From: an uncultured virus (IMG/VR IMGVR_UViG_3300020599_000006)
Taxonomy: Duplodnaviria > Heunggongvirae > Uroviricota > Caudoviricetes
Strand: one strand, 5' to 3'
Length of the DNA: 64,000 bases
IMG/VR virus record: IMGVR_UViG_3300020599_000006
This document shows, piece by piece, positions 2,529 through 42,042 of this stretch. Numbering within the stretch: the first letter of the stretch is position 1; the number at the start of each line of letters is the position of its first letter. The notes beneath the pieces are model-generated. The model had not been told where the DNA came from. It saw only the letters and a list, made by a program, of their open reading frames with translations, and made no database searches. A program made the translations under genes and the position numbers.

Positions 2529-2765
2529 ATGAATCGCCGAGACTTCCTCGGCGGGTTGATCAAGACAGCTGCTGCGGTAGCTGTCTTGGGACCCGTTGTG
2601 CTTAAACCGACTGCTGCGGTAGCCGTAGCAACACAAGAGGAACTTGTAGCTGCCTGGAAGGAGCAGATCACGGAAACCCTGATCAATCAACTCCGCGAAT
2701 GCATTTACGATGAGCTACAAAATTCCAACTACCATCGGATGATCGAACAAGGATACCTGAAATGA
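2529..2765 (+). CDS. small protein with twin-arginine-like N-terminus
   Basis: MNRRDFLGG followed by a hydrophobic stretch; stop overlaps the thyA start. Confidence 0.6.
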
Positions 2766-4204
2766 AAGCCTACTTAGATTTGATGCGTCACATTCGAGAC
2801 TTCGGCGTTTTCAAAGAAGATCGGACGGGTACGGGAACCCTCAGTGTGTTTGGCTACCAGATGCGCTTCGATCTAAGCGAGGGTTTTCCCCTCGTTACGA
2901 CCAAGAAGTGCCACCTGAAGTCGATCATCCACGAACTGCTGTGGTTCCTCAAGGGCGAGACCAATGTCCGCTACCTGAAAGAAAACGGCGTCTCCATCTG
3001 GGACGAGTGGGTCGATCCTGATACTGCTGTTTACAAGGAACTCTCTGTCCAAGAACGTCTGGATACCATCAAGAAGTCTGACGAGGCGACGATCGGGAAG
3101 GTCCTCGCATTCTTCAAGAAGTACGAGGGTAACCCCGAGCTGGAAGCGCACGAATACCTGCTGGCCGGTAATCGATACCTGATCAACCGGAACGGCTATG
3201 ACTTCCTGCCGGATTTCCTCGACAAGTGCGGTATCGATGATGAGAAACTGGTCTCTGGTGAACTGGGACCTGTCTACGGCAAGCAATGGCGCTCCTGGCC
3301 GAATCCCACTCGTCCGAAGGAGCTGGAAACCCCCCAGCGTATCGATCTGTGGAACCAACACGCCACGGCCAACTTCCCGTATTCAGGCGAACTGCTGAAG
3401 GAAATGGCCGACATCATCGACGACACGGCCACCAATTTCAAGCCGTGGGTGTTCGCCGACTACTCGAAGAAGGCAGCCCAAGTGTGGGGCTACCAAGAGG
3501 GCATCTCCAAGCTGTTTGCTATCTTCGACGTACCGACACATGTCGTCGATCCGGAAGGTTCCATCGACCAGATCAGCAACCTGATCGACATGCTGAAGAA
3601 TAATCCAGACAGCCGTCGTCTGATCGTTTCGGCCTGGAACCCAGCACAGGTGGACATAATGGCCCTCCCACCTTGCCACTGCCTATTCCAGTTCTACAGT
3701 GCTCCGTTGTCAATTAAGGAGCGCAGCAAGCTCGTCTCGAAGAAGGGTCAGGAGGCGCTTGATCAGTTCGCAGAACACATCTTGGCCGTTCGTGGTCCGG
3801 TAGGTGAGATGAAAGAACTCGATGTAGAAGTTGAGCGGCAGCATCATGAGTTCCTCGACAACATGGGCATTCCGTCCCGTAAGCTTTCCTGCCAACTGTA
3901 CCAACGCAGCATGGACGTTTTCTTAGGTTGCCCCTTCAACATCGCGTCCTACGCGTTGCTAACCATGATGATCGCCCAGGTCACCAATCATGTCGCTGGT
4001 GAGTTCATTCACACCTCTGGGGATACCCATCTCTATTCCAACCATTTGGAACAAGCTGATCTACAATTGTCACGTACGCCGCACAAGCTGCCGACCATGA
4101 AGATCAATCCGGAAGTTACCAATCTCTTCGACTTCCAGTACGAGGACTTCGAGTTGGTGGGTTACGAGTGCGACCCGGCTATCTCTGCCCCGGTGGCGGT
4201 GTGA
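2762..4204 (+). CDS. thyA: thymidylate synthase with three large insertions
   Basis: [35 protein letters not shown], YQRSxD, PFNIASY, GDTHLY motifs; 480 aa. Confidence 0.97.
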
Positions 4205-30240: not shown

Positions 30241-33200
30241 CTACTGAGTCATCCCTACTGGATAAGACTGGCGGATATGTTCCAGAAAGACAGCCGCGCT
30301 GCGCTCCAACGGAACAGAGCTGTGCATCATGCTCTCCAAACTGGTCTCCAGATCAGTCGGGGTATCGATCCCCATGATCGCAGAGACCTGTTCACGGCTC
30401 CACTCCAGGATGTCTTTGGAACGGGTGGAGATGTTCGGGTCTCCCTGAGTATCCAGGAAGCAGTCGAACACGTACACTTGCTCATCCTGACCCAGACGGT
30501 TACAGCGCGAGATCGTCTGATCACGCTCATGGTCCCGAAATGGCGAGTTGAGCATGATGAGGGTGTTGGCCATGATCAGTGGTACGGCAGTCGACAGCGA
30601 TGGGAAGGTGGCAATCAGGGGATTGGTGTCCTCATCTGTCTCGAACTGCCGGATGATAGCGGCCAGGTTCTTGTTGGTATCACCGTACACCAGTACCGGC
30701 TTGTACCCTAACTCCTTCAAGACCTTCTCCGTTTTCTGCACCACTTCCACGTAACTGGTAAAGATGACGGTCTTCTTGACGGAGTTGTCAATGATCTCCT
30801 GGAAAGGGACGTAATCGACCATCTCCAAGTGACAGCGCGAGCGAGCTTTACCCAGAATACCGCCTAATGCCTCACCCATGACCTTCAAGTTGACGTACTT
30901 GATGATGGACCTGACGCTCTTGAACTCTTTCTTGAGCTGATCCGGCAGAGAAGGAATGATTTTCCGCAATTCGTAAGAGTTGCAGAACATCACCTCGACC
31001 TTCATCTCCTTTGGGTCGTAGAACTTACGGATCATTTCCACGTACTTCTTGTACAGTTGGAAATCCCGTTCGTCTTGGCTGTTACGGATCGACTTCTCAT
31101 GCAGCTTCAAGCAGTCGTCGAAAAGGCGTTCATAATCCTTCATGCCCTTGCGATAGAACTCCAGACGCTGTTCGATGAACTTCGTCATGTCCTCACGAAC
31201 CCGTTCCAGTGTGAAGTCCTTCGCGTTAGGCGTCTTGATGTTCACTTCCTTGACAGTGGGCGTGCCATCGACCACTTGTTGCTTCGGTACTTTGAAGGTC
31301 AACAGGCCGATGCGGTTCTGGAGGATATCCAGGGCTCGTTTAGCATCACGACCGTAGATCTTCTTGAAGCGCTCTTCGACATGAGCAGGGAAGTCACCAC
31401 AGATGGTGCGTAGCAGAGGGATACATTCGTAACCCATAGCCTTGATCGGGGTACCCGATGCCCAAAGGATGTTGGTGGACTGGGTCAACTTGCACAGTTC
31501 GATGAAATTCTGGGTTCGTTGAGAGTTGATCTCATTGAAATTGTGCGATTCGTCCAACGCAATGAAGACATCATCGCCCTTTTCTTTAAGGCGCTTAGCC
31601 AAATCCAGTGCCCGATCCAGTGCTTCGTAGTGGAAGACGTAGAAACGCCGCCCTACAGGCGCTGCTTGACCGGGCATATTGGAAATCCAGTAGCTCGGCG
31701 ACTTGGGCATGTTGTACTTGATCGTTGCTTCCCACACCCGCTCGATGGAATTCTTCGGTGCGATGATGATACCGACCTTAACCTTGAGACAAACTGCCAG
31801 GGCGAGGTCGGTGACGGTGTTGTGGGTCACCACGTAGTCATCAATGACAAACAACTTCGATGGGTGCTCCACACTGATGCACACTGCTTCATCAACATCG
31901 ATTGGCTCGATACTCCGAATACGCAGTTTCAGCCCTTTGGAGTACTGGTTTTCCTCCTTAGCTAGCTCCTTCTTACGAGGTAGTCTGAAGCAATCGGCAG
32001 GGCATTTCATCCGAATAGACAGAACATAGTTAAGTCGACCCTGACGACGTTCACCGTTGTGGGTGTAGTGCGGCAGTTTTGTACCAATTCGGCAAATACC
32101 ACCGAGGGACCAGACAAGTTTTTGCACATTCGCAGCCAGCTCAGGACTGCTTGTGCTATAAGTCACACCACCAGCCTTGCCTACAGTTCCATCGGTGTCC
32201 ATCAGACCTTGGAGAAGGGCCAGTCGTTGTTCATGACTACCGTCTAGGTACTCAGGCGGAATGAACTTTTCGAAAGAATAGCTTCCGAACAAATTCATAT
32301 CGCGAATAGCGTTTGTTACCTGGTTGGTTCTAGGTTGGTTCGCTATCCGTTCAGCCACCACTTGATAGTCGACACTATCACGATGTTCAAGTGAGTGTCC
32401 ATTTGGGAGCAACCTCTGTACTTCACTGCGAATGAACTCGTCCGGGGTGCTAAGCATGGTACACGTCCGCATAGAGCCGTCGCCTAGCAATACACCCATT
32501 AGGTAAGGATCGAGCGGAAGGTCTTGGTCCGGACCAATTTCGCTGCGAGCAAGGGGAACGTAAAGCATGTCGTCATTGTCTTTACCAAGAAGACTCATCA
32601 GCTCCTTGGTGTTACGAACCTTCCATTCGTCTCTATTACCGCCATTACGGCGGTTACTCCACCACAGATGATCGGCACAGACGTCAGCCACCCGCCCATC
32701 CCAAAAAGTCACGCGATAGAGTTGTAATTTACCCTGCGGGTAAACACCCGTAACAGCAGTGGCAGTGCCATCAACCGAAATAACTTGGTCACCGATTTTT
32801 AGTTTATCGATCCTGCGCCACCCACCAGGGATTTTCACCCGCGTGTCAGCACGACAGGCCTTACCCGAGCCAGGGGGTGCTGCCAGGAGCATGCCCTTAA
32901 GCTGATACTGCTGGCGGATGCGGTCGTAGGTGTTCAGGAAATCCTTTTGGTGGGGCAGCAGAGGAAAGCCGATCTCATCGAGTTTACTGTAATCCAGGAT
33001 CGACTGGGTGGGAGGCTCCATGATGCCTTTCAACCAAGTCTTTTCCTTAAGCTCCTCGATGATCTTACCGATGGCTCGACGAGAAGTGCGAGTTTTCCTG
33101 TCCTCGTAGAGCTGCTCAAACATGTAGAGCACGTCCACTGCGAAGAATTGGTGGAAAACCACCTTACTGCGCGTGGCTGAGGTGAACATGTTCATGCTGA

Positions 33201-33330
33201 TCCGAGAGGTGGACCAGAAACGTTGGATGTCGTTGAGGATTTCCCAGCCAGGGATACCATCGATGATGATAGACCCCTTCACTTCCTCAACCCGTACAAG
33301 GCCTATTAGCCGTTTAATGCCAGAAAGCAT
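30241..33330 (-). CDS. SNF2-like superfamily 2 helicase with intein
   Basis: LLPHQ, GSGK[intein]T Walker A, LDESH, ASGTP, QTISRCNRLGQ motifs. Confidence 0.9.
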   Translation of the reverse strand: MLSGIKRLIGLVRVEEVKGSIIIDGIPGWEILNDIQRFWSTSRISMNMFTSATRSKVVFHQFFAVDVLYMFEQLYEDRKTRTSRRAIGKIIEELKEKTWLKGIMEPPTQSILDYSKLDEIGFPLLPHQKDFLNTYDRIRQQYQLKGMLLAAPPGSGKACRADTRVKIPGGWRRIDKLKIGDQVISVDGTATAVTGVYPQGKLQLYRVTFWDGRVADVCADHLWWSNRRNGGNRDEWKVRNTKELMSLLGKDNDDMLYVPLARSEIGPDQDLPLDPYLMGVLLGDGSMRTCTMLSTPDEFIRSEVQRLLPNGHSLEHRDSVDYQVVAERIANQPRTNQVTNAIRDMNLFGSYSFEKFIPPEYLDGSHEQRLALLQGLMDTDGTVGKAGGVTYSTSSPELAANVQKLVWSLGGICRIGTKLPHYTHNGERRQGRLNYVLSIRMKCPADCFRLPRKKELAKEENQYSKGLKLRIRSIEPIDVDEAVCISVEHPSKLFVIDDYVVTHNTVTDLALAVCLKVKVGIIIAPKNSIERVWEATIKYNMPKSPSYWISNMPGQAAPVGRRFYVFHYEALDRALDLAKRLKEKGDDVFIALDESHNFNEINSQRTQNFIELCKLTQSTNILWASGTPIKAMGYECIPLLRTICGDFPAHVEERFKKIYGRDAKRALDILQNRIGLLTFKVPKQQVVDGTPTVKEVNIKTPNAKDFTLERVREDMTKFIEQRLEFYRKGMKDYERLFDDCLKLHEKSIRNSQDERDFQLYKKYVEMIRKFYDPKEMKVEVMFCNSYELRKIIPSLPDQLKKEFKSVRSIIKYVNLKVMGEALGGILGKARSRCHLEMVDYVPFQEIIDNSVKKTVIFTSYVEVVQKTEKVLKELGYKPVLVYGDTNKNLAAIIRQFETDEDTNPLIATFPSLSTAVPLIMANTLIMLNSPFRDHERDQTISRCNRLGQDEQVYVFDCFLDTQGDPNISTRSKDILEWSREQVSAIMGIDTPTDLETSLESMMHSSVPLERSAAVFLEHIRQSYPVGMTQ
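31819..32859 (-). mobile_element. intein with LAGLIDADG homing endonuclease (class-3 type), 347 aa
   Basis: GSGK|ACRADTRV...DHLW...LMGVLLGDGS...LLQGLMDTDGT...AVCISV...VVTHN|T; removal restores GSGKT. Confidence 0.92.
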
Positions 33331-33387
33331 GGTATGACCCTTTTGGGATGTGTTAAAATTCATAAGATTTTCTAGCGAGGCCTAACC

Positions 33388-34799: not shown

Positions 34800-35070
34800 T
34801 AATTTGGGAAGCTGCTACTTCCCGAGTCTCTTGTAACTCACCGTGTAAACAAGAGTATTGCCTGCCAGCAACAGTGCTGCGACAACGCCCAACCATTTCC
34901 AGAGGCCGCGTTGCAAAAGCGAACGGTACGACCATTAAACCGCGTTGCCGCGCGGTGGTAAGTTGTGTAGTTAGCAGAGGTTCAACTCTGAGCTAGTGCG
35001 CAGCCTTCATGCATTTGCCCACTGTCCAAAGGACTCTGGTGAAATCCATGAGGGAAGTGCATTGGAGGCA
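34800..35070 (+). ncRNA. structured non-coding region with T-loop-like hairpins
   Basis: Successive hairpins with G-U pairs on + strand; AGAG-GTTCAA-CTCT and TGG-TGAAAT-CCA. Confidence 0.55.
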
Positions 35071-35232
35071 CCGCGATGGAAAGAAGAATAAAAAGCCAAC
35101 ACGACCATCCCGCCTATTACATCCTGGCGATGTTTGTACTGTTCTTCCTGGATGGTCCCACCTCCTTCTATGAACGCGCTGTACCCACCCGGGTCCAGTA
35201 TCCCATGGTTTGTCCCATCCAGGTAACGAAAT

Positions 35233-35514
35233 ATGCCCTCGCCATCGATCATCCAGGTCCCACCCTCAGTCCAGCCCGTGCAGTCGTTCGAGTTCCGTGA
35301 GCCGCTTTATGCTCGCGACGACATCGTCAAGCACTACAAGGGTCAGCACTACCGTGTGATCTTTACGCCGGCTGACGGTTTCCGTACCGAGGCCAGCAAC
35401 GAACCTGCCTATGCGTATTGCAAGGCAGAATCAGCACCCAATCCTACCACGAACCCTATCTGGGTGCGTGTTCAGAACGAGTTCGAAGACACGGCGAAAT
35501 TCATGCCTGTGTAA
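35233..35514 (+). CDS. DUF1653-like protein
   Basis: VKHYKGQHYRV...Y...IWVR...EF motif; start uncertain. Confidence 0.6.
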   Translation: MPSPSIIQVPPSVQPVQSFEFREPLYARDDIVKHYKGQHYRVIFTPADGFRTEASNEPAYAYCKAESAPNPTTNPIWVRVQNEFEDTAKFMPV

Positions 35515-35737
35515 TTTTTTACTGATCATGCCGATGTTTTGAAGGAAGGCAACGGCCAGAATCCTCTACCTGCTCGTCAAGCCTTCCTTCACGCCTTACT
35601 ACCTTCAACGGTCGCTCGGGATGTGGCCAATGCTGGTGGTAAGGCACCTATTCCAGTTTGCTCCAGACGGTTCTTCCCAGTGCGCTCGTTTCCCCCGGCG
35701 ATAGCATCAACTCCTAGCCGTCTGGAGCCCCTACAGT

Positions 35738-35910
35738 GTCACCTTTAGCTCATCGGTAGAGCACTGCTATCCATTTGCTGCGTCGACATGCAGCGAGTCA
35801 GGCCCCGATCTCGATCGGACATGCCTGGCTGTTCGGTTCCCCAGCAATGGGAGAACTGGAAGTCACCGACATGGCAGAGGTAGATGGTTCAATTCCATCA
35901 AGGTGCCCCA
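35738..35910 (+). ncRNA. tRNA-like RNA with ~100-nt structured insertion in the anticodon loop
   Basis: GTCACCTT-TA-GCTC..GGTA-GAGC-A-CTGCT[insert]GGCAG-AGGTA-GATGG-TTCAATT-CCATC-AAGGTGCC-CCA. Confidence 0.8.
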
Positions 35911-36218
35911 ATCTTTACCAGAGCTTGCCAAATGCAGCTCGGGTTTGTGGAGTAAGTGTCACGGCTTTCCTCTCGCCCTGGGAAGCGAGAATCGGCATGA
36001 CATGACGCAGGCTCAGGCCGCTGTCTCCAGAAACAAGTGAACGAGTACCCGCTCCAGTAGCGAGGCCTGGACGAATTAAAGAACTTCTGTTAGAGAAACG
36101 ACATTCAACGAGTACCAGCCGGTGGCTCGAGTGGACGATTAAGGTTGTTCTCGGCGGCCGTTCTAACAGGAATGAGAGTGATTCGGTGTACTCCCCGATG
36201 AGCAAGCCGAGAACGATT

Positions 36219-36380
36219 TTGAGACGATGCCGACGAGTGGCGGAATAGAAACATCGGAATACGCGGGGATCGCATCCCCAGGTAGGAGATATGACTCCGG
36301 CGGCCTGCCTGTTGGTCCCTACGTGGCTTGTGGGTTCGAGCCCCACCTCAGAGAGAACAGGACACTAGGCATCGTCTCAA
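36219..36380 (+). ncRNA. tRNA-Leu-like core enclosed by a 13-bp terminal stem
   Basis: TGGCGGAA...TACGC D-arm-like region; GTGGG-TTCGAGC-CCCAC T arm; TTGAGACGATGCC/GGCATCGTCTCAA closing helix; no CCA. Confidence 0.7.
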
Positions 36381-36388
36381 CTTTTTAT

Positions 36389-36463
36389 TCGCCCTTAGCA
36401 AAGCGGTAATGCGCACGACTGTTAATCGTGTTATCCTAGGTTCGAATCCTAGAGGGCGAGCCA
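36389..36463 (+). tRNA. tRNA-Asn (GTT)
   Basis: Canonical cloverleaf: TCGCCCT/AGGGCGA, CACGA-CTGTTAA-TCGTG, TTCGAAT loop, G-CCA. Confidence 0.95.
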
Positions 36464-36470
36464 TTTCCAT

Positions 36471-36548
36471 GACTCACTTAACTCAGCGGGTAGAGTGCTG
36501 CCTGGCACATGGCAGAAGTCGGTGGTTCAAGTCCATCAGTGAGTCCCA
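36471..36548 (+). tRNA. atypical tRNA with 8-nt anticodon loop (TGGCACAT)
   Basis: GACTCACT/AGTGAGTC-CCA; CTGCC-TGGCACAT-GGCAG; GGTGG-TTCAAGT-CCATC. Confidence 0.75.
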
Positions 36549-36565
36549 ATTTCCATCAGTTCCAT

Positions 36566-36718
36566 GAAATCGCTTAGCTCACCGGTAGAGCGCTGACATA
36601 CTGGTTCGACTCCAGACCTTGCCCCGCCTCCGGGCCACGGCGAGGGTTCCATCCTTCGGGTTGGGACATTCGGTAAACTTGTCAGAGGTACCTGGTTCGA
36701 TTCCAGGAGCGTTTCCCA
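36566..36718 (+). ncRNA. tRNA-like RNA with ~80-nt insertion in the anticodon loop containing a second T arm
   Basis: GCTC..GGTA-GAGC-G-CTGACA[TA-CTGG-TTCGACT-CCAG...]TGTCAG-AGGTA-CCTGG-TTCGATT-CCAGG-AGCGTTTC-CCA. Confidence 0.8.
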
Positions 36719-36725
36719 TTTCCAT

Positions 36726-36794
36726 GACGCATGTAGTTTAGTGGTAAAACGTCGCCCCCTCAATGTGTCACGGGTTCGAGTCCCGTCTGCGTCA
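36726..36794 (+). ncRNA. tRNA-like element lacking an anticodon stem
   Basis: GACGCA/TGCGTC acceptor, GTTT-AGTGGTA-AAAC D arm, ACGGG-TTCGAGT-CCCGT T arm. Confidence 0.65.
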
Positions 36795-36796
36795 TT

Positions 36797-36871
36797 GGCG
36801 CAGTAGCTCAGATGGTAGAGCAATTGAACCACTTGGCGAAGTCACCGGTTCGATTCCGGACATACGTCCCA
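36797..36871 (+). ncRNA. degenerate tRNA-like element
   Basis: TAGCTCAGATGGTAGAGC D arm, CCGG-TTCGATT-CCGG T arm, CCA end; anticodon and acceptor stems poorly paired. Confidence 0.6.
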
Positions 36872-36879
36872 ATCGCGAG

Positions 36880-37164
36880 ACAGTCAGGTCTAACCTGATT
36901 GTATGTGCGCCAGCTGCTGTTTTCCTTGGCGGTTGCTGGCGCCAGTGGTGACTGAGTCTGTCGCGAGACTCGAGAGTCATCACAGCTGGACCCTGCGGCA
37001 ATGTAGCACGGCCGTTGTCGCGGATCGTCCAGCACGCCCTGGCCGTCACTGATGGCCGACCCTGCCGTTGCGCCGGCGAGCCTCCTGGACACACCCCCTG
37101 GGACGGCTCGCCGGCGGCGGCCCCTATTATGGAGCCCCTGCCTAATGGCAGGGGCTTTATGCCG
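36880..37164 (+). ncRNA. run of long GC-rich hairpins ending in a terminator-like element
   Basis: Six consecutive stems then AGCCCCTGCC-TAAT-GGCAGGGGCT-TTATGCCG. Confidence 0.55.
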
Positions 37165-37233
37165 CATTGGTATGTGGAAGACCCCCCCCTTTTATGTACG
37201 CCAACCCAACCATCATTGCAAGGACACTTCTCC

Positions 37234-38709
37234 ATGTCTTTTGATATCCTCAAAGACCTCAAGGCCTCCCTGGAAGAACAGGACACGGCGTACGAGGGTA
37301 CCGACCAAGAACTGGCCTCTGACATCGCTGTCCTCCAGGCGGATGCCAGTGAGGGCACTACGTCCCTTTCCGACGCCCTGGACAAGCAAGCAGAAAGCAC
37401 TGCTCTGGCCGATTCCTTCGACCAACTGGCTACCCGTGCAGAGGAAGTCATTGGCACTGACAACGCTGATGTCGCCATTGAACATCTGGCGTTCGGTCTG
37501 ACCACGTTGATGGCTTCCAAGGGCGTGCAGTACCAAGGGGCTTCCATGGAGTCTCTGACTTCCGTAGCCACCACTGCTCGCACCATGTCCAGTAACGTGC
37601 GTAAAGCGGCTCGTGTCAGTCTGGAAGCCACCTTCCGTGAGGTACAGAACGAGATCGAAGGTACGGTGGACGATACCGTGACCAGCGCGGGTCTGCTGCA
37701 ACAAGCGATTGCTCGTATCGCCAGCAAGGCTAAGGACATCGAAGCCAACGGTGTGGTGCTGAACCACAAGGGCGTCTACCAGTTCCTGCATCGCGATGGC
37801 AAGTCGCTGTCCACGCTCTCGGGTGCCATGGCTGGCGACCTTAAGACCATTAAGGACCTGATCGCTGCAGCCCGCGAGATCAACAGCCAGTACGAGAAAC
37901 TGGCAGACGACATCATCAAGACCGGTGATGACATCAACGGCCTGCGTAAGGTCGTGGCCAGTCTGCTGGCGTTTGACAGCCGTAAAATTCTGACTCGCTT
38001 TGTCGGTGTCAAGACCCTGAACAACGGTTACTTCGAGGTAACCCGCGGGGGCAACATCGGAGAAGATGGCGATTCAATGGACGTCTACCCGCACCTGTAC
38101 TGGGACTACGACATTGTTTCCAGCGATGGCTCCAAAGCCCCGCTCAAAGAGCGCGTATCGGGTGCTCTGAAAGTGGGTGCTGCTGTGGGCATCGTTACCG
38201 GTGCCATCGGCGGAATGGTGGGTAATGTTCCGGGTATCGTTATTGGCGGTATCGGCGGTGCGTTGATGGGTGCCAAGGCGGGTTCTAGCGGTGCCAACCA
38301 CCAACATGCTGGTTCCTTGACTGAGAGTACCACCTCTATCAAGGACATGATCAAGTTCCTGAAGGACATCCAGTCGGCTGCCAAACTCATCTGGGAAGTC
38401 AACAGCCTGCTCGACAGTGCCTATGATGACTCCGCACGGGTGGACAAGCTGTTTGGCATCATGACCCACATCGGTGACATGGACTCCGATGACAGCGTCA
38501 CCAAGTTCCTGCAAGCCTTCTCCAGCGCAATGACTGGCGTATCGGCCAGCTCTCCGGCTGAGACCAGGCTGGACCGTCTGACCACCGTCCTGCATCAGAA
38601 GACCGACGAGATGTACGCCGCCCACATGTCTCTGCTTAACGCGGCCAGCGAGATAGCAGAAACCGCAGTGGACAATGGACTGACCATTGCCCGTACTCTG
38701 CTGAAGTAA
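37234..38709 (+). CDS. phiKZ-like internal head protein
   Basis: Acidic N-terminal region with ASLE, ASME, VSLE motifs; Gly-rich hydrophobic segment; AAGGA RBS. Confidence 0.7.
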   Translation: MSFDILKDLKASLEEQDTAYEGTDQELASDIAVLQADASEGTTSLSDALDKQAESTALADSFDQLATRAEEVIGTDNADVAIEHLAFGLTTLMASKGVQYQGASMESLTSVATTARTMSSNVRKAARVSLEATFREVQNEIEGTVDDTVTSAGLLQQAIARIASKAKDIEANGVVLNHKGVYQFLHRDGKSLSTLSGAMAGDLKTIKDLIAAAREINSQYEKLADDIIKTGDDINGLRKVVASLLAFDSRKILTRFVGVKTLNNGYFEVTRGGNIGEDGDSMDVYPHLYWDYDIVSSDGSKAPLKERVSGALKVGAAVGIVTGAIGGMVGNVPGIVIGGIGGALMGAKAGSSGANHQHAGSLTESTTSIKDMIKFLKDIQSAAKLIWEVNSLLDSAYDDSARVDKLFGIMTHIGDMDSDDSVTKFLQAFSSAMTGVSASSPAETRLDRLTTVLHQKTDEMYAAHMSLLNAASEIAETAVDNGLTIARTLLK

Positions 38710-38761
38710 ACGTCATACAGCGAGGGGAGCAATCCCCTCGCTTATACGGATAGGAGTCAGA

Positions 38762-39166
38762 ATGAAGAACACTACGATTTATAGCGCCCGGCTAGCGTTA
38801 GGCATTTCCACCACTGCGATGGCTGAGAAAATGTGCATTGCTAAGCGCACCTGGGAAGTTTGGGAGAATGGTCAGCGTAAGCCGGATAAACGCACACTGA
38901 TGCAGATTGCCCAACTGATCAACCAGGAGGGTAAACAAGATATTGTTGGTCTGAAGTTTGTGGGTGATGAAAGCGTGACCTATCTTCATCGTCGCCACTT
39001 CATCGAATTGCGTAAACTGGACGATCACCATCGCTGGCTCATGCGGTACGTAGACCTGCGTGCAAGCGAGCACGGTCAACCCGATCCACGTATCTGTGAG
39101 TGCATGTTGTCAGAAGTTGTTCAAGCCGATGCTGACGTCTTGGAAGTTGTTATGAACTGGAGTTAA
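38762..39166 (+). CDS. XRE-type HTH protein
   Basis: ARLALGIS...MAEKMCIAKRTWEVWENGQRKP. Confidence 0.7.
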   Translation: MKNTTIYSARLALGISTTAMAEKMCIAKRTWEVWENGQRKPDKRTLMQIAQLINQEGKQDIVGLKFVGDESVTYLHRRHFIELRKLDDHHRWLMRYVDLRASEHGQPDPRICECMLSEVVQADADVLEVVMNWS

Positions 39167-39235
39167 CTCCACCTATTACTTATGCTGTAATATTTTACTA
39201 ATCAGCAACTTCCTATGCAAAGAGGAGACATCATC

Positions 39236-39334
39236 ATGGCCTGCGGTATCTATGAAGCACCCCTGTCTACCCGCAAGAAGAAAGTCAAGAACATCAGCCT
39301 GAACATGATGGCACTGCTGTCACGTTCTCGCTAA
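39236..39334 (+). CDS. 32-aa basic peptide (not in ORF track)
   Basis: AGAGGAGA RBS; MACGIYEAPLSTRKKKVKNISLNMMALLSRSR*. Confidence 0.55.
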   Translation: MACGIYEAPLSTRKKKVKNISLNMMALLSRSR

Positions 39335-39339
39335 CCAGC

Positions 39340-39660
39340 TTCGGGATAGGTGATTCAATTCACTGCGTGGATCGGATGCGAAAAGACATCTGTCCCGAAC
39401 TTAATCGCAGATGCGATCTGACGGTCCTCTCTATCGTTCTCTGACCGGGCAGTATATCGAGGAAGAGATTCGCACCCTCTTCTAAAGAGCGATACGATCG
39501 TGGCGTCGCGAAACGCTGCGGTAAGCTGTAGAGCTGGCTGTACACTGAGGCGGTCCTTTGCTGGCCGTAAGGTGGGCTGCCCCTGCGGGGGCTTTACCAG
39601 ACTGCAACCTGCAAGTCCTTTAGTGTGCTGGCGCCAGTGCTATAAGGGCCTTGTGGGTTG
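39340..39660 (+). ncRNA. putative ~320-nt structured ncRNA
   Basis: TTCGGGATAGGTG/CATCTGTCCCGAA, TATCGTTCT/AGAGCGATA, GTACACTGAGG/CTTTAGTGTGC and further nested helices with G-U pairs. Confidence 0.6.
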
Positions 39661-39692
39661 AGTCCTGGATTTATTCCCTTTTAGGAGTGACC

Positions 39693-40313
39693 ATGAGTAC
39701 CATCGCTGTTAAAATCCCGCTGATCCAGCCGGGGCTGCTGAGCCTCTTCAACATGACTCGCGACTGGCCCGATGCGTCCCTCACTGACTCCATCGGCAAA
39801 ATCGTCCTTGGTGACGTTCTCAACGAGGATGGCACCCCCAATGCGACGTACCTGGTGGCATTCCATTCGGACAGTAACGAGAACTCCCGTAGTCCGTCTA
39901 TCACCGTCTTCGAAGGTCGTGTCAGCGCCGATGCGGTAGTGGCCAACGTGATCATCAGTCGGGAAACCGGTCTGATCAATGTCTACACCAAGCATGACCT
40001 GAATGGTCTGTCGCTGGAACTGGGTGTAGAACGCGTGAACTACAACCGCAGCCCTGCTCGCCTGGAAGACCGCTCCAACATCCTCCAGGTAGCATTCAAC
40101 GACTGCGTGGGCGATGCCACCCTGACCCGCGAACAGCTGGTCGCCAAGGTCGAAGAACGCGTCAAGCAGATCATCGACGAACGTCTGGGTGACCCGAACT
40201 TCAAGACCAAGGTCTCGATCAAGGACATGCAAGCTGATGGAGGTTATCAGTGGAGTGTTCTGGTTGCGATCGATCCCCTGGAACTGACTCTCGACCGTCA
40301 GACTGAGGGTTAA
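39693..40313 (+). CDS. hypothetical protein
   Basis: AGGAG RBS before MSTIAV. Confidence 0.7.
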   Translation: MSTIAVKIPLIQPGLLSLFNMTRDWPDASLTDSIGKIVLGDVLNEDGTPNATYLVAFHSDSNENSRSPSITVFEGRVSADAVVANVIISRETGLINVYTKHDLNGLSLELGVERVNYNRSPARLEDRSNILQVAFNDCVGDATLTREQLVAKVEERVKQIIDERLGDPNFKTKVSIKDMQADGGYQWSVLVAIDPLELTLDRQTEG

Positions 40314-40316
40314 GCC

Positions 40317-40769
40317 ATGGCACAGGTACCTACGACGTATGCGGTCTTTGATCAGTGCGTGCAAGGCCTTACTGAAATCAGTCAAGCCGCAGTGGCGCGT
40401 GCTGTCGAAATGGGGTTATCCCCCATCGACATCTTGCGGGACTTTAAGACCTACGGGTTCCACGTTCCAAGGCAGACAGGTGCGTTGAGCTGGGTAACGC
40501 TTAATCTCGTCAAGAACCCCAGGGCTATCGCCATTGTTCTCGATCACCGCATCAAGGAAATGGTTTACGGCGTTCATACCTGCGATAATCGTTTTCTGAC
40601 CTATCGAGAAGTCCAAGGTATGGTCGGAGACCTCGGGAAAGTCTGGGACGTGGATACGATCTACATCTACGACTCAGCACGTGTCTTTTCCAAGTTGCGT
40701 ATTCAGAAGTTCTACGACTGGCTAGCGACCTGGGATAAACTGCCCGAGAAGATCATCCGCATCAACTGA
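40317..40769 (+). CDS. hypothetical protein
   Basis: GAGGG RBS; 150 aa. Confidence 0.65.
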   Translation: MAQVPTTYAVFDQCVQGLTEISQAAVARAVEMGLSPIDILRDFKTYGFHVPRQTGALSWVTLNLVKNPRAIAIVLDHRIKEMVYGVHTCDNRFLTYREVQGMVGDLGKVWDVDTIYIYDSARVFSKLRIQKFYDWLATWDKLPEKIIRIN

Positions 40770-40775
40770 GTTAAT

Positions 40776-40861
40776 GCCTGGGTCGCATAGCGGCCGATTG
40801 CACCTGATTCGTAATCAGGACCCGTAAGGGCACGTGGGTTCGAATCCCACCCCAGGCTCCA
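40776..40861 (+). tRNA. tRNA-Thr (CGT) with long variable arm
   Basis: GCCTGGG/CCCAGGC, CCTGA-TTCGTAA-TCAGG, CCC-GTAA-GGG variable arm, TTCGAAT loop, T-CCA. Confidence 0.88.
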
Positions 40862-41162
40862 TATTGGCCTATAAGCCCACTGCTAGCTTACCACTGACAC
40901 GTCCCACTGAGTGCACGCAGTTGGGAACGCAGCTTGCGAGGCTCCTCCGCAGGTGTGGCGTAGTGTTATCCTGAGGGGTTGTCCGAGAGCCTTCATGAAG
41001 GATAGGGCATGTGACTTGTAGGTGGAATAGATAACCGAGGTAGGATGGGGTGGCTAAATGCCACCCCATCTATGCCGTATCTCCCGTATTTATTGGTAAA
41101 AAATTAAGAAATAGTATGGGTTCTCTGGATTCCCCAGAGGGCTATAAAGGAGACCTCCCGTC

Positions 41163-41693
41163 ATGAAAATCAATGCTTCGCTGTCTACTCTGGCGAACAT
41201 CATCGCTCTGGTCAACGGCGTCAACGCCGGTCTGAACCTGACCGATGAGCAAGTGACCATCGGTCAGGCTTCGGCCTACGTACCCGGTGAGGGTGATCTG
41301 AACAGCCAGATCACGCTGTCGGGTGTGAACGGCAAAGGCTTCCAGGGTGACGTTACCATCCACTACAAGCGCCCGGTGCTGCAACCGGGTGGTGCCTGGG
41401 GCAATGCCCTGGGGGATGGCATCCCGTCTGTACCGTCCGCTGCCACCCAAGCCCAAGCCCTGACCCTGGCTGCCACCCACCTGGGTCTGGTGGAATCCGA
41501 GCTGGACGCCTCGGCCTTCACCGCGCCGGCAGACGAGCTGACCAATGGCAGCATCACCATCACTGCCAAGGACGGTAGCCCGCTGTATACCGGCAGCTAC
41601 GTCCTGACCCTGGTGGGTCAGGACACCGATCAGAACCTGGCTGATGCCGTAACCGTCACCGACATGGACGGTTTCGACGACGCCGACGCCTAA
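41163..41693 (+). CDS. virion structural protein (paralog family)
   Basis: N..ALVN.VN, NS.....G.G..G...HYKR pattern; C-terminal V..MDGFD. Confidence 0.7.
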   Translation: MKINASLSTLANIIALVNGVNAGLNLTDEQVTIGQASAYVPGEGDLNSQITLSGVNGKGFQGDVTIHYKRPVLQPGGAWGNALGDGIPSVPSAATQAQALTLAATHLGLVESELDASAFTAPADELTNGSITITAKDGSPLYTGSYVLTLVGQDTDQNLADAVTVTDMDGFDDADA

Positions 41694-41749
41694 TCGGCCA
41701 CCCGTGCTCTTTTAGGAGGGCACGGGTTTTTTATGCCCTGGAGACTTTC

Positions 41750-42042
41750 ATGAAAGTAGATCTCACAAAGTCAGTAAAGGAGAACGTGGCCCTGCTGATC
41801 AATGAGGCTAACCCCACGTTAAATCCCCCGCTGACACCTGACATGTTCAACATCGTTTCAATCAGCAATCCCAAGTCCAAGCTAAAGTGGCCAGCGCAAT
41901 CGGTGTGGGCAATCAGTACAACTTGAACTTGACAGATCTGGTTATGCCCACTGAAGACGTCCAAGGGTCTGTCAACGTAGCTGCCTGGGAAGGCAATGAA
42001 TACTACTACAGTACGGTCAAGTCCGTGATCCTTACCCTGTAA
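41750..42042 (+). pseudogene. internally deleted, frameshifted structural paralog
   Basis: MKVDLTKSVKENVALLINEANP in one frame; ...VQGSVNVAAWEGNEYYYSTVKSVILTL* in the -1 frame. Confidence 0.55.

What the first reader, a model, noticed from the sequence alone, without database searches (positions are those of the whole stretch)
36566..36718. tRNA-like RNA with a second T arm nested inside its anticodon loop
Seen: CTGACA/TGTCAG encloses CTGG-TTCGACT-CCAG, a near-copy of its own T arm CCTGG-TTCGATT-CCAGG. It also encloses a CCTTGCC/GGCGAGG helix and a UUCG-capped hairpin. No anticodon loop is present, but the CCA end is encoded. Inference: a double-elbow RNA that could titrate elbow-binding proteins or modification enzymes.
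Basis: partly seen in the sequence, partly recalled or inferred. Interest (0 to 1): 0.72.

Follow-up and report, generated by a model that had tools for sequence, protein, structure and literature searches.

The report
Two-headed anticodon-less phage tRNA look-alike
A giant soil and wastewater phage carries, in its row of tRNA genes, three tRNA-shaped genes whose anticodon loop is replaced by extra folded RNA (in the flagged one, part of a second tRNA body), so they probably imitate tRNA and do not read codons, though their job is unproven.

Summary
Window 36568-36718 (+) encodes a tRNA-shaped RNA with acceptor stem, D arm, T arm and an encoded CCA. Its anticodon stem (36593-36598/36680-36685) closes a four-way junction instead of a 7-nt loop. 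That junction carries a T-arm copy (14 of 15 nt identical to its own T arm), an abutting 7-bp acceptor-like hairpin and a UUCG-capped hairpin.

It is not alone. A paralog at 35739-35910 has a 100-108-nt three-hairpin insert. A third at 36727-36871 is a complete "dumbbell" with a circularly permuted tRNA body (T arm, closed 7-bp acceptor, D arm, own anticodon stem) inside an outer tRNA. All sit in one tRNA row of an uncultured jumbo phage (contig 276,567 bp).

Compensatory changes among the paralogs preserve the outer stems (80 of 84 cells paired). Each unit keeps NAC(A/U)U, a valine-anticodon remnant, before the 3' anticodon-stem strand.

No family in Rfam, ARAGORN, group I intron or tmRNA models fits. 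The YrlA model hits only the third unit, below threshold, and no Ro gene is in the window. I found no homologs, so the insert has no covariation test, and there are no usable RNA data.

Best reading (about 0.5): a processed, non-decoding tRNA mimic or scaffold. Rivals: an unusual intron, or a recombination relic.

The parts
36568..36574 (+). cand1 acceptor stem, 5' strand (AAUCGCU). G36566/A36567 can extend it to 8 pairs with U3 bulged.
   Evidence: 6 of 7 pairs with 36708-36714, one U-U mismatch
36575..36592 (+). cand1 U8-A9, D arm (GCUC-ACCGGUA-GAGC) and nt 26
36593..36598 (+). cand1 anticodon-stem 5' strand CUGACA (5 bp plus A32-U38)
   Evidence: (pair probability 0.68)
36601..36615 (+). 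nested T-arm copy CUGG-UUCGACU-CCAG
   Evidence: (0.59); 14 of 15 nt identical to the gene's own T arm
36617..36645 (+). closed 7-bp acceptor-like hairpin CCUUGCC/GGCGAGG with a 15-nt loop, one nt after the nested T arm
   Evidence: (1.0)
36646..36667 (+). hairpin capped by a C(UUCG)G tetraloop, in the D-arm position of the inner module
   Evidence: (0.96)
36668..36679 (+). single strand AUUCGGUAAACU: a D-loop-like AUUCGGUA followed by the start of the AACUU valine-anticodon remnant
   Evidence: interpretation inferred
36680..36685 (+). cand1 anticodon-stem 3' strand UGUCAG
36686..36718 (+). cand1 variable loop AGGUA, T arm, acceptor 3' strand, C73 and encoded CCA
35739..35910 (+). cand2: paralogous tRNA frame. 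Its 7-bp anticodon stem (35764-70/35871-77) encloses three hairpins. Ends in GACAU before the stem, then C73-CCA.
   Evidence: (z -4.12, 0 of 200 shuffles)
36472..36548 (+). uninterrupted paralog with an 8-nt anticodon loop UGGCACAU. ARAGORN calls it tRNA-Ala(ggc). By family likeness it is a Val(CAC)-type loop with one extra 5' nt.
36727..36871 (+). cand3: complete dumbbell. An outer tRNA (acceptor, D arm, stem UCGCC/GGCGA, T arm, C73-CCA) encloses a permuted tRNA body (stem UCAAU/AUUGA, T arm 36770-86, closed 7-bp acceptor 36787-803, D arm 36806-21).
   Evidence: YrlA model 48.1 bits at 36749-36845; the inner part folds this way as MFE
36389..36463 (+). ordinary tRNA-Asn(GUU) in the same row
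   Evidence: 67.3 bits
36719..36726 (+). 8-nt spacer UUUCCAUG, also at 36464-71 and as the last 8 nt before A36567. It marks unit-plus-spacer duplication.

Best explanation
36568-36718 is a tRNA-derived, non-decoding small RNA gene. It is one of three paralogous 'nested' tRNA look-alikes in the tRNA row of an uncultured jumbo phage.

Inferred life cycle:
- It is co-transcribed with the neighbouring tRNAs.
- Host RNase P cuts the 5' side and 3' trimming stops at the encoded CCA.
- It folds as an L-shaped tRNA body whose anticodon arm ends in a four-way junction instead of an anticodon loop.
- That junction displays a second T loop stacked on a closed 7-bp acceptor-like helix (a second tRNA 'top half') plus a very stable UUCG hairpin.

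Without an anticodon loop it cannot read codons. It most likely acts by imitating tRNA. It could occupy or divert proteins that recognise tRNA shape, such as processing and modification enzymes, synthetases, or host tRNA-targeting defence nucleases and toxins. Alternatively the tRNA frame serves as a stable, correctly processed scaffold for the inserted module.

Shown: the sequence anatomy, the fold, the paralog family and the preservation of the outer stems. Inferred: transcription, processing, the second elbow, and any binding partner.
For: Anatomy and fold:
- The anatomy and MFE fold agree.
- The nested T arm is not chance.

Family context:
- Two further nested units lie in the same row. 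cand2 has z -4.12, with 0 of 200 shuffles as good.
- cand3's inner part folds on its own into a permuted cloverleaf. It is the only place where the YrlA tRNA-mimic model scores well: 48.1 bits, E 1.2e-8, against 20 bits for an ordinary tandem-tRNA junction nearby.
- Across the four Val-type units, 80 of 84 outer-stem cells are standard pairs. 15 of the 21 stem positions show two or three pair types, so the stems are kept by compensatory change.

Population data:
- In a wastewater variant, all 7 located differences over 1397 nt fall outside the five tRNA or tRNA-like genes, which total 620 nt. My arithmetic gives p about 0.016.
- The one change seen in a soil variant turns an A-U of cand3's inner T stem into G-U.

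Against decoding or known splicing:
- There are no group I, group II or tmRNA hits at E up to 10, and no ARAGORN tRNA or tmRNA call for this unit.
- Precise removal of the insert would leave U37 in cand1 and cand3, and C33 in cand3.

The design recurs elsewhere:
- An IMG/VR contig has a complete tRNA-Ile nested in a Val(CAC)-type frame (L080).
- Another has a frame with an inner T arm plus a GAAA-capped hairpin (L136/L144).
Against: - I found no homolog of this RNA, so the insert's helices have no covariation support. They rest on one sequence and moderate z-scores (-1.9 and -2.4).
- There is no transcript evidence.
- The conserved NAC(A/U)U before the 3' stem strand in all four units and in L080 looks like a retained valine anticodon. 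A pure mimic does not obviously need one.
- Each nested unit has one acceptor-stem mismatch.
- A natural deletion variant removes 638 nt, including the 3' end of cand2, tRNA-Asn and the 5' part of the 8-nt-loop unit. Parts of the row are therefore dispensable.
- The D-arm partner for the second T loop is missing in this unit.
- No Ro/TROVE, RtcB or RNA ligase gene was seen in the 64 kb. No partner protein is suggested.
Confidence: 0.5

Rival explanations
1. Intron-bearing tRNA-Val genes. The three nested units would be precursors of tRNA-Val(AAC), (GAC) and (CAC), interrupted between positions 33 and 34. The insert would be removed by an undescribed route, for example cuts directed by the tRNA-like insert followed by a phage RNA ligase, to give decoding tRNAs.
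For: - The 5 nt before the 3' stem strand read AACUU, GACAU and CACUU. The uninterrupted paralog reads CACAU.
- cand1 and cand2 keep A32-U33 on the 5' side.
- No ordinary tRNA-Val was found in the window.
- L080 in IMG/VR has the same layout, with CACAU after a nested, complete tRNA-Ile.
- Devoto et al. 2019 (PMC6784885, passages read) report Lak-phage tRNAs with 'enigmatic introns', one of which may itself encode a tRNA.
- From recall: position 33/34 is where PrrC-type nucleases cut and T4 RNA ligase 1 reseals.
Against: - No group I or II intron signal appears at E up to 10. At 87-108 nt the inserts are far below group I size (from recall).
- No bulge-helix-bulge appears in the folds.
- The three inserts share no boundary motif.
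- Removal would leave U37 in cand1 and cand3, and C33 in cand3.
- All units have C73 and most have G-1, unlike bacterial tRNA-Val (A73, from recall).
- Closed, permuted inner modules cannot be released by end-processing enzymes.
- No RNA ligase or RtcB gene is in the window, though three quarters of the genome is unseen.
Confidence: 0.17
2. Non-functional relic. The unit would be a by-product of tandem duplication and unequal recombination among paralogous tRNA genes in a fast-changing phage tRNA row, with junk fixed inside a dead tRNA-Val copy.
For: - The nested T arm is a near-copy of the gene's own T arm.
- Repeated 8-nt spacers show duplication of unit plus spacer.
- A soil variant carries a 638-nt deletion created at a 10-nt stretch shared by two paralogs.
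- Each nested unit has one acceptor mismatch.
- The outer T stem of L080 is imperfect.
- No relatives were found anywhere.
Against: - The outer stems of all paralogs are kept by compensatory changes, 80 of 84 cells.
- The inserts are more stable than shuffles. They contain features not expected from junk: a 7-bp hairpin placed one nt after the T arm, and a C(UUCG)G cap on a long helix.
- In cand3 both anticodon-stem halves pair only across the two half-units (5 of 5 and 5 of 5 pairs) and not within them.
- All 7 located variant sites avoid the genes.
Confidence: 0.2
3. Y RNA of the YrlA type. It would work with a phage or host Ro60/Rsr protein, with the tRNA-like module tethering Ro to other enzymes.
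For: - The YrlA model (RF02553) hits 36749-36845 in cand3 at 48.1 bits, E 1.2e-8.
- The inner modules have the YrlA order: stem, T arm, closed acceptor-like stem, then the D position.
- M. smegmatis YrlA also has a 7-bp acceptor-like stem (PMC4201824, passages read).
- Some jumbo phages encode TROVE proteins (PMC7824862, passage read).
Against: - The score is below Rfam's gathering threshold of 69. cand1 itself gets no YrlA hit.
- Chen et al. warn that tandem tRNAs give false positives.
- The GNCGAAN0-1G motif near the 5' end is absent. GGCGAAG occurs only on the 3' side of cand3.
- No TROVE gene was found among the ORFs scanned in the window.
- The ends form a tRNA acceptor with CCA, not a Ro-binding helix.
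Confidence: 0.08

Closest known systems
YrlA, the tRNA-like bacterial and mycobacteriophage Y RNA (Rfam RF02553; Chen et al. 2014, PMC4201824)
   Same: A closing stem carries a T arm, then a closed acceptor-like hairpin, then a D-position element. This is a circularly permuted tRNA body without an anticodon. The M. smegmatis form has a 7-bp acceptor-like stem, as here.
   Different: The other end here is a whole second tRNA body with a free CCA end, not a Ro-binding helix. There is no 5' GNCGAAN0-1G motif and no rsr gene nearby. The Rfam score is below threshold for the neighbouring unit and absent for this one. In this unit the D arm is replaced by a long UUCG hairpin.
'Enigmatic introns' in Lak megaphage tRNA genes (Devoto et al. 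2019, PMC6784885; passages only, supplements not read)
   Same: These are large-phage tRNA genes made over-long by an insert in the anticodon-loop region. One insert is itself tRNA-like. The mechanism is unknown.
   Different: Lak inserts were read as introns at or near the canonical position of Tyr and Thr tRNAs, in a 26% GC gut phage. Here the frames are Val-type, the break is 5' of position 34, and the inner module is permuted and closed. The units carry C73, and most also G-1. No sequence relation was found.
Phage T4 species 1 RNA (rnaC) and species 2 RNA (rnaD), stable RNAs at the end of the T4 tRNA cluster (NC_000866 annotation)
   Same: They are small stable RNAs of unknown function encoded inside a phage tRNA row. 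rnaC is 139 nt and ends in a canonical T arm followed by a short strand that pairs with its 5' end. It is a tRNA frame around non-tRNA hairpins.
   Different: The folds show no second T arm and no D arm in rnaC. blastn of the region against phages found no T4 match.
Group I introns in bacterial tRNA anticodon loops (including the 33/34 position)
   Same: The insert lies in the anticodon loop just after U33.
   Different: There is no Rfam group I hit at E up to 10. The insert is 87 nt, whereas group I introns exceed about 200 nt (from recall). None of the group I core helices appears in the fold.
Engineered 'tRNA scaffolds' and naturally permuted tRNA genes (recalled, not checked here)
   Same: Replacing the anticodon loop of a tRNA by a foreign structured RNA gives a stable, correctly processed chimera. 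Permuted tRNAs have the 3' half before the 5' half.
   Different: The scaffolds are laboratory constructs and the permuted genes are eukaryotic algal genes that mature to normal tRNAs. Nothing here is known to be matured.

Membership tests
tRNA (RF00005 / ARAGORN) | Acceptor stem, D arm and T arm with conserved U8, A14, GG, UUCRA, plus a 3' CCA site | tested here: met
   all are present, with one U-U mismatch in the acceptor stem
tRNA (RF00005 / ARAGORN) | A 5-bp anticodon stem closing a 7-nt loop with U33 and an anticodon; recognised by the models | tested here: not met
   The loop is replaced by an 81-87-nt three-hairpin insert. There is no RF00005 hit on this unit at E up to 10 and no ARAGORN call.
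YrlA Y RNA (RF02553) | Score at or above Rfam's gathering threshold (69 bits) | tested here: not met
   no hit on 36566-36718 other than a 20-bit tandem-tRNA artefact at 36513-36596. The neighbour cand3 scores 48.1 bits.
YrlA Y RNA (RF02553) | tRNA-like domain in the order T arm, closed acceptor-like stem, D arm | tested here: inconclusive
   the T arm and 7-bp closed stem are present. The D arm is replaced by a UUCG hairpin plus a D-loop-like single strand. The feature is fully met in cand3.
YrlA Y RNA (RF02553) | GNCGAAN0-1G motif near the 5' end (probable Ro contact; PMC4201824) | tested here: not met
   absent from cand1. In cand3 GGCGAAG occurs only on the 3' side.
YrlA Y RNA (RF02553) | Encoded within about 4 kb of a Ro60/TROVE gene on the same strand | tested here: not met
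   no TROVE hit among the ORFs scanned (90 aa or more near the locus, 130 aa or more elsewhere in the window). The other 213 kb of the genome was not available.
Group I intron in tRNA | Recognisable group I core (Rfam Intron_gpI) and adequate size | tested here: not met
   no such hit at E up to 10 in 35000-42000. The insert is 87 nt.
Archaeal/eukaryal protein-spliced tRNA intron | Bulge-helix-bulge at the exon-intron borders; usually at position 37/38 | tested here: not met
   the borders lie in a four-way junction closed by a continuous 6-bp stem, with no 3-nt bulges. The break is 5' of position 34. No dedicated BHB tool was run.
tmRNA | tRNA-like domain without a D stem, pseudoknots, and a tag reading frame | tested here: not met
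   ARAGORN finds no tmRNA; no tmRNA family hit. A full D arm is present.
Phage tRNA genes with 'enigmatic' inserts (Devoto 2019; a description, not a curated family) | A phage tRNA-cluster gene with a tRNA frame and an unexplained insert in the anticodon loop, sometimes itself tRNA-like | tested here: met

The most novel reading that the evidence does not exclude
These are members of an undescribed class of phage RNAs: 'two-headed' tRNAs built on a valine-tRNA frame with a histidine-type G-1:C73 acceptor end. The nested, permuted tRNA top half would be a working part. It could act as a decoy that draws tRNA-targeting host defence enzymes or processing and modification enzymes away from real tRNAs. 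Or it could be a handle that directs RNase P-type cutting and re-ligation at position 33/34, a new protein-assisted tRNA maturation route that yields a set of tRNA-Val isoacceptors.
Probability: 0.25. Interest if true: 0.8.

Novelty: new variant of a known kind. Interest (0 to 1): 0.55.

Why it matters
Large phages carry many tRNA genes, and some are over-long for unknown reasons. These were called 'enigmatic introns' in 2019 and remain unexplained.

This locus gives a compact, well-defined example. Three grades of the same design lie side by side: a plain structured insert, a partial second tRNA body, and a complete permuted second tRNA.

If these are tRNA mimics, they would be a phage counterpart of bacterial Y RNAs. 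They could take part in the tRNA-centred arms race with host defences. If they are spliced, they would reveal a new bacterial or phage tRNA maturation pathway. Either outcome can be tested with a Northern blot or tRNA sequencing and an RNase P assay.

Tried and rejected
Homolog hunts, all negative for this RNA:
- blastn of 36200-37000 against GenBank phages gave one trivial T-arm hit.
- megablast of 22 kb gave none.
- tblastn of the downstream protein gave none.
- The search for related loci in IMG/VR with two window proteins gave none.
- A frame-plus-gap DNA pattern in IMG/VR gave 0 hits.
- The protein alignment A1 in JGI metagenomes gave 0 confirmed relatives.
- The frame-plus-gap pattern in JGI metagenomes gave 9 hits, all ordinary tandem tRNAs.
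- The inner-T-arm pattern gave 5 hits in IMG/VR and 6 in GTDB genomes. All were tRNA-like units without an anticodon arm followed by a tRNA.
- The protein database holds only one relative of the downstream protein (78% identity, 161-kb contig). I could not fetch its DNA.
- An alignment of six window paralogs was too divergent to search with (error), and I dropped that route.

Post-filtering gave analogues (L080, L136/L144, L087/L041, L029) but no homologs.

RNA evidence: contigs of two soil metatranscriptome runs laid on 35600-37000 do not cover 36413-36873. This says nothing either way. Their pieces start at 36874 and 36883, just after cand3's CCA, which is at most a weak hint of a processing site.

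Whole-genome searches for TROVE and YrlA were impossible because no genome is held.

The sigma-70 promoter scan found 0 promoter-like sites in 34900-37300, and only two minus-strand terminator-like sites at shuffle level.

The full-length MFE of cand3 is not the dumbbell (-47.8 against -39.3 kcal/mol). I keep the dumbbell because its inner part folds that way alone and because the cross-pairing is specific.

A pairwise MAFFT alignment of the cand1 and cand3 arms was uninformative.

I considered whether the 475 nt between cand2 and tRNA-Asn is a large structured RNA. Its z is -0.81, so I set that aside.

Literature searches for a described two-headed or nested phage tRNA mimic found only the Lak 'enigmatic introns' and YrlA (and passages in 71).

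Full report
**Setting**

The window is phage DNA.
- PHROG and Pfam scans find thymidylate synthase, NAD-dependent DNA ligase, a SNF2-type helicase carrying a LAGLIDADG domain, a run of DUF7941/phrog_1037 virion-protein paralogs and tail-fibre proteins.
- The protein next to the locus is recorded on a contig of 276,567 bp, so this is a jumbo phage.
- It has no close relative in GenBank phages or IMG/VR. No whole genome is held.
- Near-identical DNA occurs in soil and wastewater runs of 13 studies.

**The observation**

Helix probabilities run from 0.59 to 1.0.

Read as a tRNA, the gene runs from 36568 to 36718:
- a 7-bp acceptor stem with one U-U mismatch;
- U8-A9 and a canonical D arm;
- a 5-6-bp anticodon stem;
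- a 5-nt variable loop and a canonical T arm;
- C73 and an encoded CCA.

Instead of a 7-nt anticodon loop, the stem closes a four-way junction. In order it carries:
- two unpaired nt;
- a T-arm copy, 14 of 15 nt identical to the gene's own T arm;
- one nt;
- a closed 7-bp GC-rich hairpin;
- a hairpin of eight standard pairs plus one U-U mismatch, capped by C(UUCG)G;
- twelve unpaired nt.

A T stem followed directly by a 7-bp helix is the geometry of the acceptor/T 'top half' of a tRNA. The twelve unpaired nt contain AUUCGGUA, which resembles the D loops of the paralogs (AUCGGUA, ACCGGUA).

T-arm motifs are rare outside tRNA genes in this window. There are 19 in 128 kb of both strands, 9 of them in the tRNA regions, and shuffles average 4.3. 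The nested copy is therefore not chance. Thermodynamic support is moderate: z is -1.9 for the whole RNA and -2.4 for the arm.

**It is one of a family**

The same + strand row holds five units, in this order:
- cand2 (35739-35910);
- tRNA-Asn (36389-36463);
- a unit that ARAGORN calls tRNA-Ala(ggc), with an 8-nt loop (36472-36548);
- the finding, cand1;
- cand3 (36727-36871).

cand2 is a tRNA frame whose 7-bp anticodon stem encloses three hairpins. Its z is -4.12, with 0 of 200 shuffles as good.

cand3 is what Rfam and ARAGORN split into a weak tRNA plus a fragment. Its 5' acceptor strand pairs with the far 3' end (7 of 8 pairs). UCGCC pairs with GGCGA 79 nt downstream. Between them lies a circularly permuted tRNA:
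- anticodon-stem strand UCAAU, then a variable loop and a T arm;
- a closed 7-bp acceptor hairpin with a 3-nt loop;
- UA, then a D arm;
- anticodon-stem strand AUUGA.

That inner part folds exactly so on its own. Within each half-unit the anticodon-stem strands are not complementary. They pair only across the halves. The full-length MFE prefers another fold by 8.5 kcal/mol. I take this as a limit of the energy model for multi-branched tRNAs, but it is a caveat.

The units are separated by the same 8-nt spacer, UUUCCAUG. This points to growth by duplication of unit plus spacer.

**Selection on the frames**

I compared the four Val-type units: cand1, cand2, cand3 and the 8-nt-loop unit.
- 80 of 84 outer-stem cells are standard pairs.
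- 15 of the 21 stem positions show two or three different pair types. The cloverleaf frame is therefore maintained by compensatory change.
- The four non-pairs are one acceptor mismatch in each nested unit and one terminal T-stem position in cand3.

A wastewater variant differs at 7 located places over 1397 nt. None lies in the five tRNA or tRNA-like genes, which total 620 nt. My arithmetic gives (777/1397)^7, about 0.016. The piece table counts 11 differences, so four are not located.

A soil variant has one change, A to G at 36770. It keeps the first pair of cand3's inner T stem as G-U. The same run also carries a 638-nt deletion from 35868 to 36507, formed at a 10-nt stretch shared by cand2 and the 8-nt-loop unit. 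The row therefore recombines, and parts of it can be lost.

**Valine remnant and acceptor end**

In all four units the five nt before the 3' strand of the anticodon stem read NAC(A/U)U:
- AACUU in cand1;
- GACAU in cand2;
- CACUU in cand3;
- CACAU in the 8-nt-loop unit.

These are valine anticodons followed by positions 37 and 38.

All four units have C73. Three have G at -1 that could pair with it. cand1 has G at -2 and A at -1, with U3 bulged in the MFE. From recall, G-1:C73 is the hallmark of tRNA-His, not tRNA-Val. This is an inference, not a test.

**What it is not**

- Rfam at E up to 10 gives no tRNA, group I, group II or tmRNA hit on cand1.
- ARAGORN sees no tRNA or tmRNA there.
- The YrlA model scores 48.1 bits on cand3, against a threshold of 69, and nothing meaningful on cand1.
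- Chen et al. 2014 caution that tandem tRNAs mimic YrlA for the model. They define YrlA also by a 5' GNCGAAN0-1G motif and a nearby rsr gene (passages). Neither is found here.

**Analogues elsewhere**

Pattern scans of IMG/VR, post-filtered by script, found several analogues:
- a complete tRNA-Ile(GAU) nested in a Val(CAC)-type frame, again followed by CACAU (L080), although the outer T stem there is imperfect;
- a frame with an inner T arm followed by a GAAA-capped hairpin (L136/L144);
- tRNA frames with 90-110-nt inserts (L087/L041, L029, L123/L049).

Devoto et al. 2019 reported Lak megaphage tRNAs with 'enigmatic introns', one possibly encoding a tRNA.

T4 species 1 RNA (rnaC, 139 nt), a stable RNA of unknown function in the T4 tRNA cluster, also has a tRNA-type T arm and paired ends around non-tRNA hairpins.

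Earlier AI notes of this scan describe similar two-headed RNAs in other phages. I treat these as leads only.

**Mechanism**

My best reading, at confidence about 0.5, is a processed, non-decoding tRNA mimic or natural tRNA scaffold. The frame would ensure RNase P and 3'-end processing and stability. The junction would display a second tRNA top half.

The rivals are:
- an intron of unknown mechanism in tRNA-Val genes (0.17). It is favoured by the anticodon remnant. It is disfavoured by U37 and C33, by closed permuted inserts, by the lack of shared borders and by the lack of ribozyme signals;
- a recombination relic (0.20). It is favoured by the row's instability and the lack of relatives. It is disfavoured by the compensatory maintenance and the ordered inserts;
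- a true Y RNA (0.08).

**What is missing**

I found no homolog of cand1 in any accessible collection. Its insert therefore has no covariation test. The RNA-run contigs do not cover it. The supplements of the papers cited were not read.

**Verdict**

It is part of a three-member nested-tRNA family. It is a new variant of a known but unexplained kind, and its function is open.

Noticed in passing
window 36727-36871: A complete 'dumbbell': an outer tRNA with a CCA end whose anticodon loop is replaced by a circularly permuted tRNA body (T arm, closed 7-bp acceptor, D arm, own anticodon stem). Standard tools split it into a weak tRNA and a fragment. The YrlA model scores 48.1 bits on it.
   Followed up: yes
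window 35739-35910: A paralogous tRNA frame with a very stable three-hairpin insert (z -4.1) and no inner T loop. Removing the insert after U33 would give a perfect AUGACAU Val(GAC) loop.
   Followed up: yes
window 36472-36548: The gene called tRNA-Ala(ggc) has an 8-nt anticodon loop UGGCACAU, perfect stems and G-1:C73. By family likeness it is a Val(CAC)-type loop with one extra 5' nucleotide. It could be a frameshifting or non-decoding tRNA.
   Followed up: partly
window 35868-36507 (run X7): A soil variant carries a 638-nt deletion joining cand2 to the 3' half of the 8-nt-loop unit at a shared 10-nt stretch. It removes tRNA-Asn and leaves a chimera whose acceptor strands no longer match.
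   Followed up: partly
window 35911-36388: A 475-nt stretch without a convincing ORF lies between cand2 and tRNA-Asn. It ends in an orphan canonical T arm (36330-36346) with no matching 5' acceptor strand. It is not more structured than shuffles (z -0.81). It is possibly the wreck of another unit.
   Followed up: partly
window 40776-40861: tRNA-Thr(CGU) has an 11-nt hairpin-forming insertion in the variable region (class II-like arm), which is unusual for a threonine tRNA.
   Followed up: no
window 30241-33363 (-) and 2762-4204 (+): The SNF2-type helicase carries a LAGLIDADG domain (a likely intein). The thymidylate synthase matches its Pfam model in two stretches around a large insertion.
   Followed up: no
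L080 94-247 (IMG/VR contig): A complete tRNA-Ile(GAU) with its own CCA is nested in the anticodon loop of a Val(CAC)-type tRNA frame. It is flanked by a UUA-anticodon suppressor tRNA and tRNA-Asn.
   Followed up: partly
L001-L005, L136-L252, L253-L258: Many phage contigs and a few bacterial MAGs encode tRNA-like units with acceptor, D and T arms but no anticodon arm. In 65 of 93 loci evaluated, the unit's own acceptor closes right after the T arm.
   Followed up: no
window 36874-36883: Contigs of two metatranscriptome runs from two studies begin 3-12 nt after cand3's CCA, at higher depth than upstream pieces. This is a weak hint of a processed 5' end for the downstream mRNA.
   Followed up: no
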